From: Sandaracinaceae bacterium
Lineage (GTDB): Bacteria; Myxococcota_A; Polyangia; Polyangiales; Sandaracinaceae
DNA: 64,000 bases
Direction: 5' to 3'
NCBI GenBank assembly: GCA_044220955.1
Contig: JBGAQA010000008.1
Coordinates: forward strand, 64,316-128,315
Made by a program: the position numbers and the translations under genes. Below, one piece after another: positions 41,134 through 46,067 of the stretch. A model generated the notes under the pieces. That model saw only the letters and a list, made by a program, of their open reading frames with translations, had not been told where the DNA came from and searched no databases. The number at the start of each line of letters is the position of its first letter. Positions within the stretch are counted from its first letter, which is position 1.

Positions 41134-41206
41134 CGCCGACGGAGACTAGGGCCGCGCCACGGGCGGGGCCAGTGCGATGGCGGCGAGTGCGATACGCTTC
41201 GCTCCG

Positions 41207-41965
41207 ATGCCGATCGAGGTCGTCCTCGCGGCGGCGGGCGTCGTGGTCGTGGGGGTCACGGACACGCTGCTCGCGCTCCGCGTGCTCCGCGCCTACCGCA
41301 AGGCGCGGCGCGTGCCCCACCTCGTCATCGTCTACGGCATCGCGAGCTCGTTCTTCGCCGTGCTCGGGGCGAGCATCGTGTTCGCGGCCGAGGGGTCGCC
41401 CGTGCTGGCCGAGGGGCTCGCGTGGGACATCGCGCGCATCACGGGCTTCGGCGGCGCGGCGCTGGCGTACGGGCTCGTCGGCGTGTTCGCGACGAGCGCG
41501 CTCGCTCGCTCGGCCGCGATGAAGCGCGCTTCGTACGCGGTTCTGGCCGCGCTCGCGTCGCTCGCGGCCGTCGCGGTGCTGGCGAGCCCCCGCGAGATCG
41601 GGACGATCGCGACGACCGCGTGGGGCATGCGCCTGCCCTTCGTGGCGCTCGCGCTGCTCGGCTCGGGCTATGGCTTCCTCGAGTCGCGCTCGCTGGTCGC
41701 GGCGTACGAGCGGGCGCGCGCGGCGGGGCGGGCGGTCGATCGCGTGGCGCTCGCGCGCATGCGCACGATGGGGCACGGGTTCGCCGCGATGGCGGCGGGG
41801 CAGGCGCCGCTGCTCGGCTTCGCGCCGGGCGGGCGCTTCGACACGCCGCTCGGCTACGCCTGCGTGGCGATGCTGCTGCTCGGTGCGCTCGGCTTCGTGC
41901 TCGCGTGCGTGGTCACGTGGGCGACGCCGGCCTTCGTGCGCGCGCGCTGGGAGGCCGCGCCATGA
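41207..41965 (+). CDS. Polytopic (about 7 TM) membrane protein, hypothetical
   Basis: About seven hydrophobic segments, no recognisable enzymatic domain. Confidence 0.65.
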   Translation: MPIEVVLAAAGVVVVGVTDTLLALRVLRAYRKARRVPHLVIVYGIASSFFAVLGASIVFAAEGSPVLAEGLAWDIARITGFGGAALAYGLVGVFATSALARSAAMKRASYAVLAALASLAAVAVLASPREIGTIATTAWGMRLPFVALALLGSGYGFLESRSLVAAYERARAAGRAVDRVALARMRTMGHGFAAMAAGQAPLLGFAPGGRFDTPLGYACVAMLLLGALGFVLACVVTWATPAFVRARWEAAP

Positions 41966-42246
41966 GCGCGCTGCTCGACGCCGCCGGCGAGGTGCTCGCG
42001 CGCGAGACGGGCATGACCGCGACGCAGGCGCGCGGGACGCTGCGGCTCCTGCTCAAGGAGCGCGGCATCGACGCGCGGATCGCCCGCAAGGCCGACGTGC
42101 TCGCGCTCTTGACCGGCACGCTCGGCGATGCGCTCGCCAAGCGCCGCATCGAGGCGCGACCGACCTTGCTCGCCGCCATCCGTCGCGCCGTCGAGAGTGC
42201 GAGCGAAGAGGACGACCTGCTCGATCTCTTCTCCGACATCGACTGA
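41962..42246 (+). CDS. Small helical hypothetical protein coupled to the membrane protein
   Basis: ATGA overlap; [35 protein letters not shown]. Confidence 0.65.
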
Positions 42247-42259
42247 GCGTGCGCCGCGC

Positions 42260-42274
42260 TACGCTCCGGCGGTG
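42260..42274 (+). promoter_or_regulatory. Putative -10 box and original GTG start of ggt (pre-intron leaderless promoter)
   Basis: TACGCT-CCGGCG-GTG immediately before the intron 5' end. Confidence 0.55.
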
Positions 42275-44303
42275 GTGCGTCGCGTCGAAGACCACGACGA
42301 AGCCGAGCGATCGGTAGAGCCGCGATCTTCTCGCTGCGCCTCTCCTTCGGGTGGAAGTCCCGACTCGGTAAGCGCCGGCGCGCCGAGTAGCAGGCTCCGG
42401 GTGCCTGGCCGAGAGGTCTACGCCCAAGCGGAGCGTCGAAAGCCCGCGAGGCGGCGAGAGCCGCGCAGCGGGGAGCGAGCACACGGGCCGCAATACGAAG
42501 TGAAGCCTGCAGCCTCGACAGAGAAACAATCCGAGAGCCGAGCCGCTCATCTCACGGCGAAGGCAACATCGCGCGGACCAGCACCGGAACGTGCGCGCGG
42601 TCTCGGCGGGGTATGGGGAGCAGCACGTGTGCACGGAGAGGAGCGGAACGCGAGAGACCCGTCTGCGCAGCGGTCGTCGCCGCAAGCGCGTGCGTATAAG
42701 CCGGAGGCGAAATCGCACGCGGCGCAGCGGGAGTCCGAGGGGGCCGTAGTAGTGGCGATCGCGGCGCAGAAGAACGCCGCGGGAGCGAAGGACCCCTGCT
42801 TTGGTCATGTCGGAGGAGCAGGTAAGCGCGAGGGAATGGCCGCCAGGAGCGGACCTAACGACCCCGGCGGCCGACGGCCGTTCGACAAAGTGCGACAACT
42901 GCGACGACGACTGTGGGCCGCAGCCAAGCGGGCTCCGGGTAGACGCTTCCACGCGCTGTACGATCACATCGCGCGGAGTGACGTCCTCGCGGAAGCGTGG
43001 AAGCGGGTGCGCGCGAACAGGGGAGCGGCGGGCGTCGATGGTGTGACGCTCGTCGAGATCGAACAGCGCGGTGTCGATGTCTTCCTGGAAGGGATCGGCG
43101 CAGCGCTGCGCGAGGGGACGTACCGGCCGGCCGTGGTCCTGCGCCGGTACATCCCGAAGGCCGATGGAAAGCAGCGGCCCTTGGGCATCCCGACGGTACG
43201 GGACCGTGTGGTCCAGATGGCGGCGACGCTCGTGCTGGAGCCGATCTTCGAGGCGGACTTTCTTCCGTCCTCGTACGGCTTCCGGCCCGGGCGAAGCGCG
43301 ACGATGGCGCTCGAGACCCTGCGCAAGCAGGGGAGCAAGAGCCATCACGTGCTCGACGCCGACATCCGCGACTACTTCGGAAGCATCGACCACGACAAGC
43401 TGCTGAAGCTCGTCGCGCGTCGAGTCTCGGATCGCCGAGTGCTCAAGCTGGTGAGGCAGTGGCTCGAAGCGGGCGTGATGGAAGACGGTGCCGTGACGGG
43501 GACGACGAAGGGCACGCCGCAAGGCGGGGTCATCTCGCCGCTCCTGTCGAACGTCTACCTGCACGTACTCGACGCGATGTGGCAACGCCACGGCGCGAAG
43601 GAGTACGGAACGCTCGTGCGCTACGCCGACGACTTCGTCGTCATCACGAGGACGAAGTCGGCGTGCGCGGCGGCCGAAGAGCGCATCGGGGTCATCCTGA
43701 AGCGTCTCGGTCTGGAGCTGCATCCCGACAAGACGAGGAAGGTGGAGCTCTTCGATGGCAAGGAGGGCTTCGACTTCCTCGGCTGCCATCTGCACAAGCG
43801 CATGAGCGGCGCGATCTGGGAACGGGAAGGACGCCGTGTGTACTTCCTGCACCGAGAGCCGTCGCAGCGTGCGATGAAGCGGATCCGGCAGCGTGTGCGT
43901 GAGCTGACTCCGAGGGGACGCTGTCACGTCGACACGCGCGACGTGATCGCCGATCTCAACCCTGTGCTTCGCGGCTGGGGCGAGTACTTCCGCACCGGGA
44001 ACGCCGCCAAGCGATTCAACCAGCTCGACTCGTACGTGTGGCAACGCCTCCGAGCGCTCCGCGTGAAGAGGAAGGGCCGCAACGTGCGACCGCGCGATCT
44101 CGATCGCTGGTCCCGCGACTACTTCGTCGGCCTCGGGCTCCACCGCCTGCGAGGCACCGTCCAATACCCGGGGGCCGCGTAATGCGTCGACCCGAGAGAC
44201 CATCGGCAAGCCGTGTGCGGGAAATCCGCACGCACGGTTTGAAAGGGGATCCTGCCCTTTCACCGATGAAACCCATCGTGTGAAAGGGCAGGATCTACCA
44301 ATG
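42275..44303 (+). mobile_element. Group II intron (ribozyme plus intron-encoded RT); boundaries +/-1 nt
   Basis: 5' GTGCG; GGGTGGAAGTCCC stem; domain V AAGCCGTGTGCGGGAAATCCGCACGCACGGTTT; long domain VI stem with bulged A at 44297. Confidence 0.9.
42836..44182 (+). CDS. ltrA: Group II intron reverse transcriptase/maturase without endonuclease domain
   Basis: [62 protein letters not shown], domain [13 protein letters not shown]. Confidence 0.95.
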
Positions 44304-46067
44304 AAGCGCGCCCCGCTCGCCCTGCTCGCCTGCTTCGTCGCCCTGACCGCGCCCGCGGCGCACGCGTACGAGCCAGACCCCTTCGCGCTCGGCGCGCCGC
44401 CGTCCTTCTTCGCGCGCTACACGCGCTACGCGGTCGCGGCCGACACGCCGCTCGCGTCGCAGGCCGGCGCCGACATCCTCGGGGCCGGCGGGAACGCCGC
44501 CGACGCGGCCGTCGCCACGGTGCTCGCGCTCGGCGTCGCCAGCCCGGCCTCGAGCGGCCTCGGGGGCGGAGGCTTCGCGCTCTACTATCGGGCGTCCGAC
44601 CGCACGCTGACCCTCCTCGACTTCCGCGAGCGCGCGCCCGCCGCGGCGAGGCCCGACATGTTCGCGCGCCGCGCGGACGAGGACGACGCCGCCGCGTCCG
44701 CGCGCTCGCAGACGGGTGGCCTGGCCGTCGGCGTTCCAGGCGAGCCCGCCGGACTCGACGCGATCCTGACGCGATTCGGCTCGGGTCGTGTCGCGCGCGC
44801 GGCCATCGCACGCCCGGCCGAGCGGCTCGCACGCGAGGGTGTCCCGGCCACCCGCTACGTCGCCACGCAGTCGCAGGCGTTCGTCGCGCTCCTCGCCGCC
44901 GACCCCGTGCTCCAGACGTTCCTGCCGACGCCGACGACGCCGATCGCGCGAGGCCAGCGGCTCGTCAACCCGATGCTGGCCCGGACGATCCACCAGTTCG
45001 GCGCGCGCGGCGCGGAGCCCTTCTATCGCGGCGCGATCGCGCGGGAGATCGCGCGGGTCGTCTCCGCGCATGGCGGTGTGCTCACGGCTGCCGACCTCGA
45101 GGCGTACGAGGTCCGTGAGCGTGCGCCGCTGCGGGCGACGCGCTTCGGACACGAGATCGTGACGGCGCCGCCGCCCTCGGCAGGAGGCTTCACCTTGCTC
45201 GCGAGCCTCGGGCTCCTCGAGCGCTGGATGCCCGCGCCGCGCGAGGGTGCGGCGCTCCGCCACGCGCTCGCCGAGAGCTGGGTCGGTCCCTTCGGCGATC
45301 GCCAGGCCTACGCCGGCGACCCCGACTTCGCCGCGATCCCGGTCGACGCGATGCTGGCCGACGATCGCTTGGCGGCGCGCGCGACTCTCTTCGATCCGCA
45401 CGGGCACCGCGGCCCGCTCGCGTGGGCGCTGCCCCTGCCCGGCTCCGAGCCGGCGAGCACGGCGGGCGGCGAGGACCACGGGACCTCGCACGTCTGCGTC
45501 GTCGACGCCGAGGGCAACGTGATGGCGCTGACCACCACGATCAACCTCCAGTTCGGTGCGCGCCTCACCGCCGCGGGGATGATCCTCAACGATCAGATGG
45601 ACGACTTCGCGCGCGAGGTCGGCGTGGCGAACGCGTTCGGCCTCGTCGGCGGCGCGCTGAACCTGCCCGGCCCGGGGCATCGACCGGTCTCCACGATGTC
45701 GCCGACGATCGTCCTCGATGCGCAGGGGGCACCCCTGCTCTGCATCGGCGGCAGCGGCGGCAGCCGCATCGTGACGGCCGTCGAGCAGGTCCTGATCTTC
45801 ACGCTCTTCGTCGACACGACCGTGGGCGATGCGGTGGCGCGGGCGCGCGTCCACCACCAGGGCGCGCCCGACGTGCTGAGCACCGAGGTCGCGCTTCCGG
45901 CGGATCTGGCGCTCGCGCTCGGGGCGCGCGGACACGACCTGAGCGCGCCGGTCGAGGCCTCGGCGAACGTGCAGGCGATCCGCATCCTGCGCGACGCCTC
46001 GGGGACGATCACGGGCCTGGAAGCGGCGAGCGATCTCCGCAAGGACGGCGAGCCCCGCGGGCTGTAG
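44301..46067 (+). CDS. ggt: Gamma-glutamyltransferase
   Basis: GGNAADAAVA, SSGLGGGGF, DFRERAP, GTSHVCVVD, TTTIN, LNDQMDDF, GGSGGSRI. Confidence 0.93.
   Translation: MKRAPLALLACFVALTAPAAHAYEPDPFALGAPPSFFARYTRYAVAADTPLASQAGADILGAGGNAADAAVATVLALGVASPASSGLGGGGFALYYRASDRTLTLLDFRERAPAAARPDMFARRADEDDAAASARSQTGGLAVGVPGEPAGLDAILTRFGSGRVARAAIARPAERLAREGVPATRYVATQSQAFVALLAADPVLQTFLPTPTTPIARGQRLVNPMLARTIHQFGARGAEPFYRGAIAREIARVVSAHGGVLTAADLEAYEVRERAPLRATRFGHEIVTAPPPSAGGFTLLASLGLLERWMPAPREGAALRHALAESWVGPFGDRQAYAGDPDFAAIPVDAMLADDRLAARATLFDPHGHRGPLAWALPLPGSEPASTAGGEDHGTSHVCVVDAEGNVMALTTTINLQFGARLTAAGMILNDQMDDFAREVGVANAFGLVGGALNLPGPGHRPVSTMSPTIVLDAQGAPLLCIGGSGGSRIVTAVEQVLIFTLFVDTTVGDAVARARVHHQGAPDVLSTEVALPADLALALGARGHDLSAPVEASANVQAIRILRDASGTITGLEAASDLRKDGEPRGL

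What the first reader, a model, noticed from the sequence alone, without database searches (positions are those of the whole stretch)
42260..44310. Group II intron inserted precisely at a start codon and rebuilding translation initiation from its own 3' end
Seen: removing 42275-44303 gives TACGCT-CCGGCG-GTG|AAG CGC GCC CCG, a -10 box, 6-nt spacer and GTG in frame with ggt. The intron ends ...GCAGGATCTACCAATG, supplying AGGA 7 nt before a new ATG in the ggt frame. The bulged A (44297) is 7 nt from the end only if the intron ends in AUG rather than the canonical AY (alternative boundary 42274-44302). A domain I stem-loop contains CACCG (42582-42586), complementary to the exon end CGGTG, a candidate EBS1/IBS1 pair. 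Inference: the intron is neutral whether or not it splices, and from a leaderless promoter the 5' exon would be only 3 nt. From memory, start/stop-codon-associated intron lineages have been reported, so novelty may be limited to the leaderless targeting and AUG end.
Basis: partly seen in the sequence, partly recalled or inferred. Interest (0 to 1): 0.82.

Follow-up and report, generated by a model that had tools for sequence, protein, structure and literature searches.

The report
Intron homing to leaderless start codons
A mobile self-splicing intron sits right behind the start codon of a gene that is transcribed without a leader; its relatives in many bacterial phyla do the same, apparently finding the spot by base-pairing with the start codon and part of the promoter, a habit not found in the literature searched.

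Summary
The habit is lineage-wide: among 70 tree-defined loci from about ten phyla, 62 of 64 located 5' ends follow ATG/GTG/TTG, 60 of 61 lie 5-8 nt behind TAnnnT, and 62 of 64 3' ends are RTG. CACCG is alpha', not EBS1; the real EBS1 is CAUC. The Shine-Dalgarno-like AGGA is buried in domain VI and found in only 18 of 64 relatives, so 'neutral without splicing' is unsupported. New here: an EBS2 that covaries with the downstream half of the -10 box, replication-strand bias (13 of 13), and an open frame from the host start codon through the ribozyme into the RT (22 of 26 in this clade). It is not the known CL1 start/stop-codon lineage, g1 or class C. No RNA evidence of splicing or start site was obtained. 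The scan has reported this lineage before in other genomes.

The parts
42260..42265 (+). -10-like hexamer TACGCT of the ggt promoter (inferred leaderless)
   Evidence: all 5 same-genus intron-free ggt genes have TAnnnT 6-7 nt before an in-frame start, 0 of 14 more distant ones
42263..42266 (+). IBS2 candidate: last three bases of the -10 box plus first spacer base; 3 of 4 pair with EBS2 in this copy
   Evidence: covariation
42271..42274 (+). IBS1 (GGTG), containing the host start codon GTG 42272-42274; end of the 5' exon
42275..44303 (+). group II intron, 2,029 nt, GUGCG to AUG
42272..44182 (+). open frame of 636 codons from the host GTG through ribozyme domains I-III into the RT
42375..42378 (+). 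alpha (loop of subdomain Ib)
42521..42524 (+). EBS2 candidate (GAGA); the A at 42522 is nearly invariant and faces the last T of the -10 box
42548..42551 (+). EBS1 (CAUC) in the loop of hairpin 42542-42558, preceded by U42547 (delta by position)
42614..42614 (+). EBS3 (U), pairs with A44304
42736..42738 (+). J2/3 CGA; gamma = C, pairs with terminal G44303
42836..44182 (+). RT/maturase core from the internal ATG, 448 aa, YADD, no endonuclease domain
44208..44240 (+). domain V
44245..44299 (+). domain VI with bulged A44297; AGGA 44290-44293 lies in its 3' strand
44301..44303 (+). intron-terminal ATG, in frame with ggt
44304..46067 (+). 3' exon: gamma-glutamyltransferase from codon 2, intact; signal-peptide-like N-terminus (read by eye)

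Best explanation
A mobile, endonuclease-less group II intron of a lineage that homes to promoter-adjacent (leaderless) start codons. (1) Targeting, inferred from covariation: the intron RNP reverse-splices into the sense strand directly after RTG, pairing 4 nt of EBS1 with NRTG, EBS3 with the next base, and up to 4 nt of EBS2 with the downstream half of the -10 box; the upstream TA is read by something else (RT protein, an extra RNA base or RNA polymerase; not resolved). The copies' orientation fits use of the lagging-strand template at replication forks. (2) Expression, inferred: the intron takes over the host promoter and start codon; in this clade ribosomes starting at the host GUG can run through domains I-III into the RT, so a transcript is either translated or folded and spliced. 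(3) Host gene: splicing restores the native GUG-AAG message; the intron's own terminal AUG is a probable fallback start, without a dependable Shine-Dalgarno site. Shown: boundaries, empty allele, target consensus, pair covariation, open frame, strand bias. Not shown: transcription start, splicing, which RT form is made, use of the terminal AUG.
For: Empty allele in 2 of 4 runs laid. Five identical copies in G035 follow ATG (2) or GTG (3) and all end AATG; five in G032 all follow ATG. 62 of 64 5' flanks ATG/GTG/TTG; 60 of 61 with TAnnnT at 5-8 nt, 73 of 75 with extra copies; spacers 6 (36), 7 (16), 8 (3) against 59 of 9,240 shifted anchors. EBS3 Watson-Crick 54 of 61, shuffles mean 17.6, max 32; EBS1 position 4 paired 57 of 61, shuffles mean 35.4, max 49; all 3 CAC-bearing tips follow GTG. 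gamma C with last G in 63 of 64. EBS2: top three of 5,519 column tests fall in one antiparallel register; 112 of 168 Watson-Crick pairs against shuffles mean 58 (max 80) and within-clade shuffles mean 61 (max 81). Three sites outside that set (L146, own C263, C206) pair 3, 3 and 4 of 4. Frame open into the RT in 22 of 26 of the window's clade, 0 of 52 other frames, with 5' lengths 531-597 in steps of three. In-frame ORF of at least 100 codons after the terminal RTG in 58 of 68, against 9 and 29 in the other frames. 13 of 13 copies co-directional with replication, a 14th at the predicted terminus.
Against: No RNA evidence: the one RNA run laid holds two identical intron pieces and no junction. 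In the own genome only 2 of 5 located 5' ends have a strict TAnnnT at 5-8 nt (C206 has CACAAT; C68 and C222, both remnants, have none). The RT fusion is not lineage-wide: 3 of 11 and 3 of 27 in the other two clades; an internal ATG at the RT start is conserved. The first two bases of the -10 box do not pair in the EBS2 register (6 and 3 of 56). Loci are related and were the best 80 of at least 595 matches. Monophyly is neither shown nor rejected (p-AU 0.40). How a 3-nt 5' exon is held through the second splicing step is unexplained. Genes are themselves biased to the leading strand (recalled), which weakens the strand test.
Confidence: 0.7

Rival explanations
1. One reading: the intron rebuilds a full initiation site (Shine-Dalgarno plus AUG) in domain VI, so ggt is made whether or not the intron splices.
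For: Terminal RTG in 62 of 64; AGGA 7 nt before ATG here and an SD-like 4-mer in 15 of the window's clade; several decayed copies in the own genome keep domain VI plus ATG in front of long ORFs.
Against: SD-like 4-mer in only 18 of 64 loci, none in the 29-row mostly actinobacterial clade; AGGA is paired in a -41.9 kcal/mol stem that the remnants also keep; the RT stop lies about 120 nt upstream, too far for simple coupling.
Confidence: 0.15
2. Transcription-coupled homing: the RNP attacks the non-template strand in the RNA polymerase open complex, and sigma, not the intron, supplies the TA specificity.
For: The conserved bases (TA...T) and the 6-8 nt spacing are those of a sigma-bound -10 element (recalled); the TA is unpaired in the EBS2 register; spacing varies among identical copies.
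Against: 13 of 13 copies are co-directional with replication, as for fork-dependent introns such as RmInt1 (PMC8643678 passage); half of the box is explained by RNA pairing. The two models can both hold.
Confidence: 0.3
3. The open frame only keeps ribosomes on an otherwise naked 560-nt leader (avoiding premature termination, or coupling), and the working RT starts at the internal ATG 42836.
For: Internal ATG conserved behind a purine-rich stretch; in a Solirubrobacterales group the host-started ORF stops after 160 codons, three bases before the RT ATG; in others it stops at about 125 codons.
Against: In the window's clade each of four segments changes length only in multiples of three and the frame always joins the RT; the same holds for own C263, C206 and L146.
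Confidence: 0.35
4. The terminal AUG is a splicing or folding element (gamma' G plus a self-mimic of IBS1 that pairs with EBS1), not a start codon.
For: The last G is required by gamma = C; AUG is complementary to the CAU of EBS1.
Against: Three of four introns with CAC in EBS1 still end in ATG, which mismatches (L006, L044, L060); variants are GTG (3), another start codon; the Firmicute sister introns with gamma C end in AG.
Confidence: 0.3
5. No targeting: the intron inserts at any NRTG/N site and only copies behind promoters survive.
For: Only expressed copies can spread.
Against: 82,703 sites in this genome fit EBS1/EBS3 and only 300 have the box, yet recent identical copies nearly all have it; EBS2 covaries with the box.
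Confidence: 0.04

Closest known systems
Specialised IIB1/CL1 clade at start or stop codons (Avi.groEL, EcKTE56.groEL; Michel et al. 2007 as summarised in PMC12584367)
   Same: Group II introns tied to translation signals; the process by which they find them is stated to be unknown.
   Different: Those have a CL1 RT with endonuclease and a 300-700 nt subdomain Ia insert. This one has no endonuclease, only 29-77 nt before the Ia-type hairpin, ends in AUG, targets leaderless starts behind a -10 box, and branches far from the long endonuclease-type reference L138 (34.6% identity). The 2007 paper itself was not seen.
Class C (IIC) introns, after terminators or at attC
   Same: No endonuclease, short EBS1, target defined by a recurring expression signal, many unrelated sites, lagging-strand bias (PMC4424553, PMC7306698, PMC8919778 passages).
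   Different: Target is the start of a transcript; an EBS2 exists; RT 35-38% identical to four plasmid introns with the class C 5' consensus, which form a separate clade.
Classes E/F and the unclassified relatives (Ni.ha.I1, Rh.sp.I1, My.va.I1; U1/U2 of PMC8919778)
   Same: alpha' in a terminal loop as described for IIE/IIF (PMC3753933); Rh.sp.I1 is the nearest named intron fetched (48% identity) and shares the domain I layout.
   Different: Rh.sp.I1 and Ni.ha.I1 do not follow a start codon and have gamma A or a canonical AY-type end; no start-codon or promoter habit is mentioned in the passages read. My.va.I1 could not be fetched and may be a member.
Class G (g1): Rh.js.I1, Sr.me.I2
   Same: No endonuclease; common in Actinobacteria.
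   Different: Separate clade, 35-41% identity, inserted in IS genes.
[quoted passage not shown]
   Same: Intron ORF extended through ribozyme sequence to use the host's translation signals.
   Different: Here bacterial, and the upstream exon is inferred to be the start codon alone.

Membership tests
Group II intron | Domain V/VI and domain I structure | tested here: met
   Rfam RF00029, RF02003, RF02005 above gathering scores; fold
Group II intron | RT/maturase ORF in domain IV | tested here: met
   TIGR04416 409.9 bits, cut-off 300; RVT_1 and GIIM
Group II intron | 5' GUGYG | tested here: met
   GTGCG at 42275; 46 of 63 tips GTGYG, 16 TTGCG/TCGCG
Group II intron | 3' AY | tested here: not met
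   Ends in UG; gamma-gamma' kept as C-G in 63 of 64
Group II intron | Precise insertion without duplication | tested here: met
   Empty allele differs by exactly 2,029 nt
Group II intron | Self-splicing in vivo or in vitro | not testable with these tools
   RNA run gave no junction
Specialised IIB1/CL1 start/stop-codon clade | In or next to a start or stop codon | tested here: met
Specialised IIB1/CL1 start/stop-codon clade | 300-700 nt 5'-subterminal insert (subdomain Ia) | tested here: not met
   74 nt from 5' end to the first conserved hairpin here, 29-77 in relatives
Specialised IIB1/CL1 start/stop-codon clade | CL1 RT with endonuclease | tested here: not met
   No HNH domain; no groEL intron itself was placed in the tree
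Class C (IIC) | Insertion after a terminator or attC hairpin | tested here: not met
   Flanks are TAnnnT-spacer-RTG
Class C (IIC) | No EBS2 | tested here: not met
   EBS2 covariation
Class C (IIC) | RT in the class C clade | tested here: not met
   L137, L139, L140, L144 (class assigned by me from the 5' consensus in PMC4028801) form a separate starred clade
Class G (g1) | RT groups with Rh.js.I1 and Sr.me.I2 | tested here: not met
Class F (g2-g5) | RT groups with class F members | tested here: inconclusive
   Only one reference (Ni.ha.I1, g3), outside the lineage, 43% identity; g2, g4, g5 not fetched
Class E | RT groups with class E members | not tested
   No labelled class E reference was fetched

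The most novel reading that the evidence does not exclude
A fourth target specificity for bacterial group II introns, promoter homing: the intron RNA reads the start codon with an anticodon-like CAU loop and half of the -10 box with EBS2, lands at +4 of leaderless transcripts in about ten phyla, splices with a 5' exon of only three nucleotides, and uses its catalytic RNA core simultaneously as coding sequence so that the host's leaderless start drives the RT; a spare AUG at its own end protects the host gene. Undescribed in print.
Probability: 0.55. Interest if true: 0.88.

Novelty: new variant of a known kind. Interest (0 to 1): 0.78.

Why it matters
A review lists three target specificities for bacterial group II introns: homing sites, terminators and attC (PMC4424553). 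This lineage would add a fourth, the mirror image of class C: it seeks the start of transcripts and is expressed wherever it lands. It makes several questions testable: whether a ribozyme can splice with a trinucleotide 5' exon, how translation through a ribozyme core competes with its folding, and how a retroelement recognises a promoter. Each insertion also marks a probable leaderless transcription start in uncultured bacteria, and annotation pipelines will mis-set the RT start and the intron ends (non-AY end, some 5' ends in U).

Tried and rejected
Boundary one base left (42274-44302): EBS3 and gamma disagree. Boundary three bases left (RTG belonging to the intron): excluded by G035 copies and by the empty allele keeping G42272. 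5' end at 42249: excluded. g1 assignment, my first guess: rejected. Idea that decayed copies free the AGGA by losing half of domain VI: they keep the stem. Local folds of the 5' end and of the EBS1/alpha' region were no better than shuffles (z 0.46 and -0.19), so domain I assignments rest on Rfam and covariation. An EBS2a-like base for the upstream TA could not be tested because those target bases are invariant. The full 101-row IQ-TREE run did not finish; FastTree and a 39-row IQ-TREE were used. Six of 70 tips had no locatable 5' end (L006, L010, L023, L028, L048, L066) and six no 3' end; they are outside the counts. L035, L043 and L056 were left out of the covariation scans (mis-picked end, duplicate, odd flank), and L007 and L026 were skipped. 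Simon et al. 2008 is not held. The look-up of earlier notes in this genome returned nothing and by sequence one unrelated note.
Full report
Observation. Rfam finds two domain I families and domain V. The ORF 42836-44182 is a group II RT/maturase (TIGR04416) with RVT_1 and GIIM but no endonuclease domain. The downstream gene is an intact gamma-glutamyltransferase. Domain VI folds as one long stem of -41.9 kcal/mol with A44297 bulged.

Boundaries. The letters TG occur at both ends, so the register needed independent tests. (a) Contigs of two DNA runs from different studies, of four runs laid, join 42272 to 44302 and skip 2,029 nt with two ambiguous letters; the empty allele reads GTG AAG. In X1 this joint has depth 13.2 against 14.4 for the flank, while intron pieces have 25-43, so the site is polymorphic and the intron multi-copy; X1 may be the source sample. 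(b) Five identical copies in G035 follow ATG twice and GTG three times and always end AATG, so the first start codon belongs to the exon and the last to the intron. (c) The base at the EBS3 position pairs Watson-Crick with the base after the terminal ATG in 54 of 61 loci (shuffles mean 17.6, max 32 of 10,000) but with the G of ATG in 15. (d) J2/3 is CGA and the last base G in 63 of 64; sister introns show A-U, C-G and G-C at these two positions. The intron is 42275-44303 and ends in AUG. All five same-genus intron-free ggt genes have TAnnnT 6-7 nt before their start, one of them GTG AAG CGC; 0 of 14 more distant ones do.

Lineage. The RT search kept the best 80 of at least 595 matches. In a 101-row FastTree, 69 of the 80 plus the window fall in two supported clades (14 and 58 rows); ten Firmicute loci and L075 fall outside. 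A 39-row IQ-TREE leaves these clades and the Firmicute clade in an open fork; holding the lineage together is not rejected (p-AU 0.40). Hosts named in the records span Myxococcota, Acidobacteriota, Actinomycetota, Pseudomonadota, Planctomycetota, Spirochaetota, Chloroflexota, Gemmatimonadota, Nitrospirota and Melainabacteria. Ends were located from intron-internal motifs only. Of 70 tips, 64 gave a 5' end: ATG 52, GTG 9, TTG 1, and two odd (one mis-picked by a base). 64 gave a 3' end: ATG 59, GTG 3, ACG 1, AAT 1. TAnnnT lies 5-8 nt before the codon in 60 of 61, and 73 of 75 with 14 extra copies; spacers were 6 (36), 7 (16), 8 (3), against 59 of 9,240 shifted anchors. In this genome 300 of 82,703 sites fitting EBS1 and EBS3 have the box. 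A frame of at least 100 codons follows the terminal RTG in 58 of 68 loci, against 9 and 29 in the other frames. Against this: of five 5' ends in the own genome only two have a strict box; C206 has CACAAT and two remnants have none.

Target pairing. EBS1 is the preceding hairpin, whose loop carries CAU, or CAC in introns that follow GTG. Positions 1-4 pair in 59, 60, 59 and 57 of 61; position 4 exceeds all shuffles (mean 35.4, max 49) and position 5 does not pair. An unbiased scan of domain I-III columns against flank positions put three columns of one antiparallel register on top of 5,519 tests once flanks were aligned on the box. They define an EBS2 (42521-42524): its A faces the last T of the box in 55 of 56, and the three variable positions give 112 of 168 Watson-Crick pairs against means of 58 and 61 (max 80 and 81) for free and within-clade shuffles. 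Three sites outside that set fit with 3, 3 and 4 of 4 pairs. The box's first two bases are not paired in this register. If transcription starts at the RTG, IBS2 and position -4 are absent from the precursor RNA, so these pairs can act only on DNA; this step is inference. In three single-chromosome genomes 13 of 13 copies are co-directional with replication from dnaA and a 14th lies at the predicted terminus, as expected for an endonuclease-less intron using forks (PMC8643678, PMC8919778 passages).

Expression. Here the frame from GTG 42272 is open for 636 codons through domains I-III into the RT. The same holds in 22 of 26 measurable loci of the window's clade, with 0 of 52 other frames open; 5' lengths run from 531 to 597 in steps of three, and the four exceptions are off by one or two bases. 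In the other clades fusion is rare (3 of 11, 3 of 27), yet the host-start frame still has the fewest stops, and one group stops three bases before the RT ATG. An internal ATG is conserved, so which protein is made is open. In-frame fusion to the upstream exon is known in organelles as core creep (PMC8393795 passages).

The terminal AUG. It is conserved and in frame, but the Shine-Dalgarno part is not: an SD-like 4-mer occurs in 18 of 64 loci and here lies inside the domain VI stem. Splicing is the more likely route to ggt mRNA. A fallback start is my preferred reading (about even odds), because variants remain start codons and three of four CAC-type introns keep ATG although it cannot pair with their EBS1.

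Literature. Seen: PMC12584367 part 1 of 8 and passages; PMC3552965 parts 1-3 of 4 and Table S2; PMC4244168 passages, a table search and part 2 of 10 of Table S1; passages only of PMC4424553, PMC8919778, PMC3753933, PMC4028801, PMC7306698, PMC8632793, PMC8643678, PMC8393795. Not seen: Michel et al. 2007, Simon et al. 2008, the intron database and a 2018 thesis cited in PMC8919778; any of them could mention this lineage, and PMC4028801 says unpublished new classes exist. Ten searches returned no listing that describes start-codon or leaderless-promoter targeting outside the CL1 clade. The known start/stop-codon clade differs in RT class, endonuclease and its 300-700 nt insert. Five earlier AI notes report the same lineage in other genomes; they are not independent support.

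Verdict. A real group II intron of a widespread lineage with a target rule that I could not find described: new variant of a known kind. Lineage-wide targeting about 0.93; full mechanism about 0.7; interest 0.78. Promoter function, splicing and translation are all inferred from DNA.

Noticed in passing
lineage loci, e.g. L042, L050, L055, L057, L063, L069: 17 of 64 introns begin with U (TTGCG or TCGCG); 12 of the 16 with EBS3 = C do so against 5 of 48 others, as if a 5' G were avoided when the 3' exon starts with G. Mostly one clade, so not independent.
   Followed up: partly
L046, L057, L058, L060, L065, L069: The ORF from the host start runs 160 codons through the ribozyme and stops three bases before the RT ATG, which looks like translational coupling instead of fusion.
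   Followed up: partly
G000 C68:6966-7068: 103-nt remnant holding only the intron's first bases and domain VI plus ATG, ahead of a 207-codon ORF and out of frame with the original ATG.
   Followed up: partly
G000 C34, C52, C93/C294, C167, C206, C222, C263, C271, C292: Further copies and fragments; C263 is a complete 1,981-nt intron of another clade; C93 and C294 overlap by 52 nt; most 3' remnants precede long ORFs.
   Followed up: yes
window 41177-41965 and 41962-42246: Two genes without Pfam or NCBIfam match lie between gshB and ggt here; neither was found in the 19 ggt loci of relatives, several of which have gshB directly divergent from ggt.
   Followed up: partly
L036, L071, L074, L079, L136: A Firmicute sister clade (47-52% RT identity) follows U-rich, terminator-like tracts and shows gamma/gamma' covariation A-U, C-G, G-C; no terminator scan was run.
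   Followed up: partly
L021, L048, L066: Members that seem interrupted by another intron (L021, L048) or an insertion sequence (L066).
   Followed up: no
G000, whole genome: TAnnnT peaks 6-10 nt before probable starts: 571 of 4,859 long ORFs against 141 at control spacings, so roughly 9% of genes look leaderless (crude gene calls).
   Followed up: partly
L137: A class C-like intron in Sinorhizobium also follows the letters ATG, but inside a transposase-like sequence and without a -10 box; taken as coincidence.
   Followed up: no
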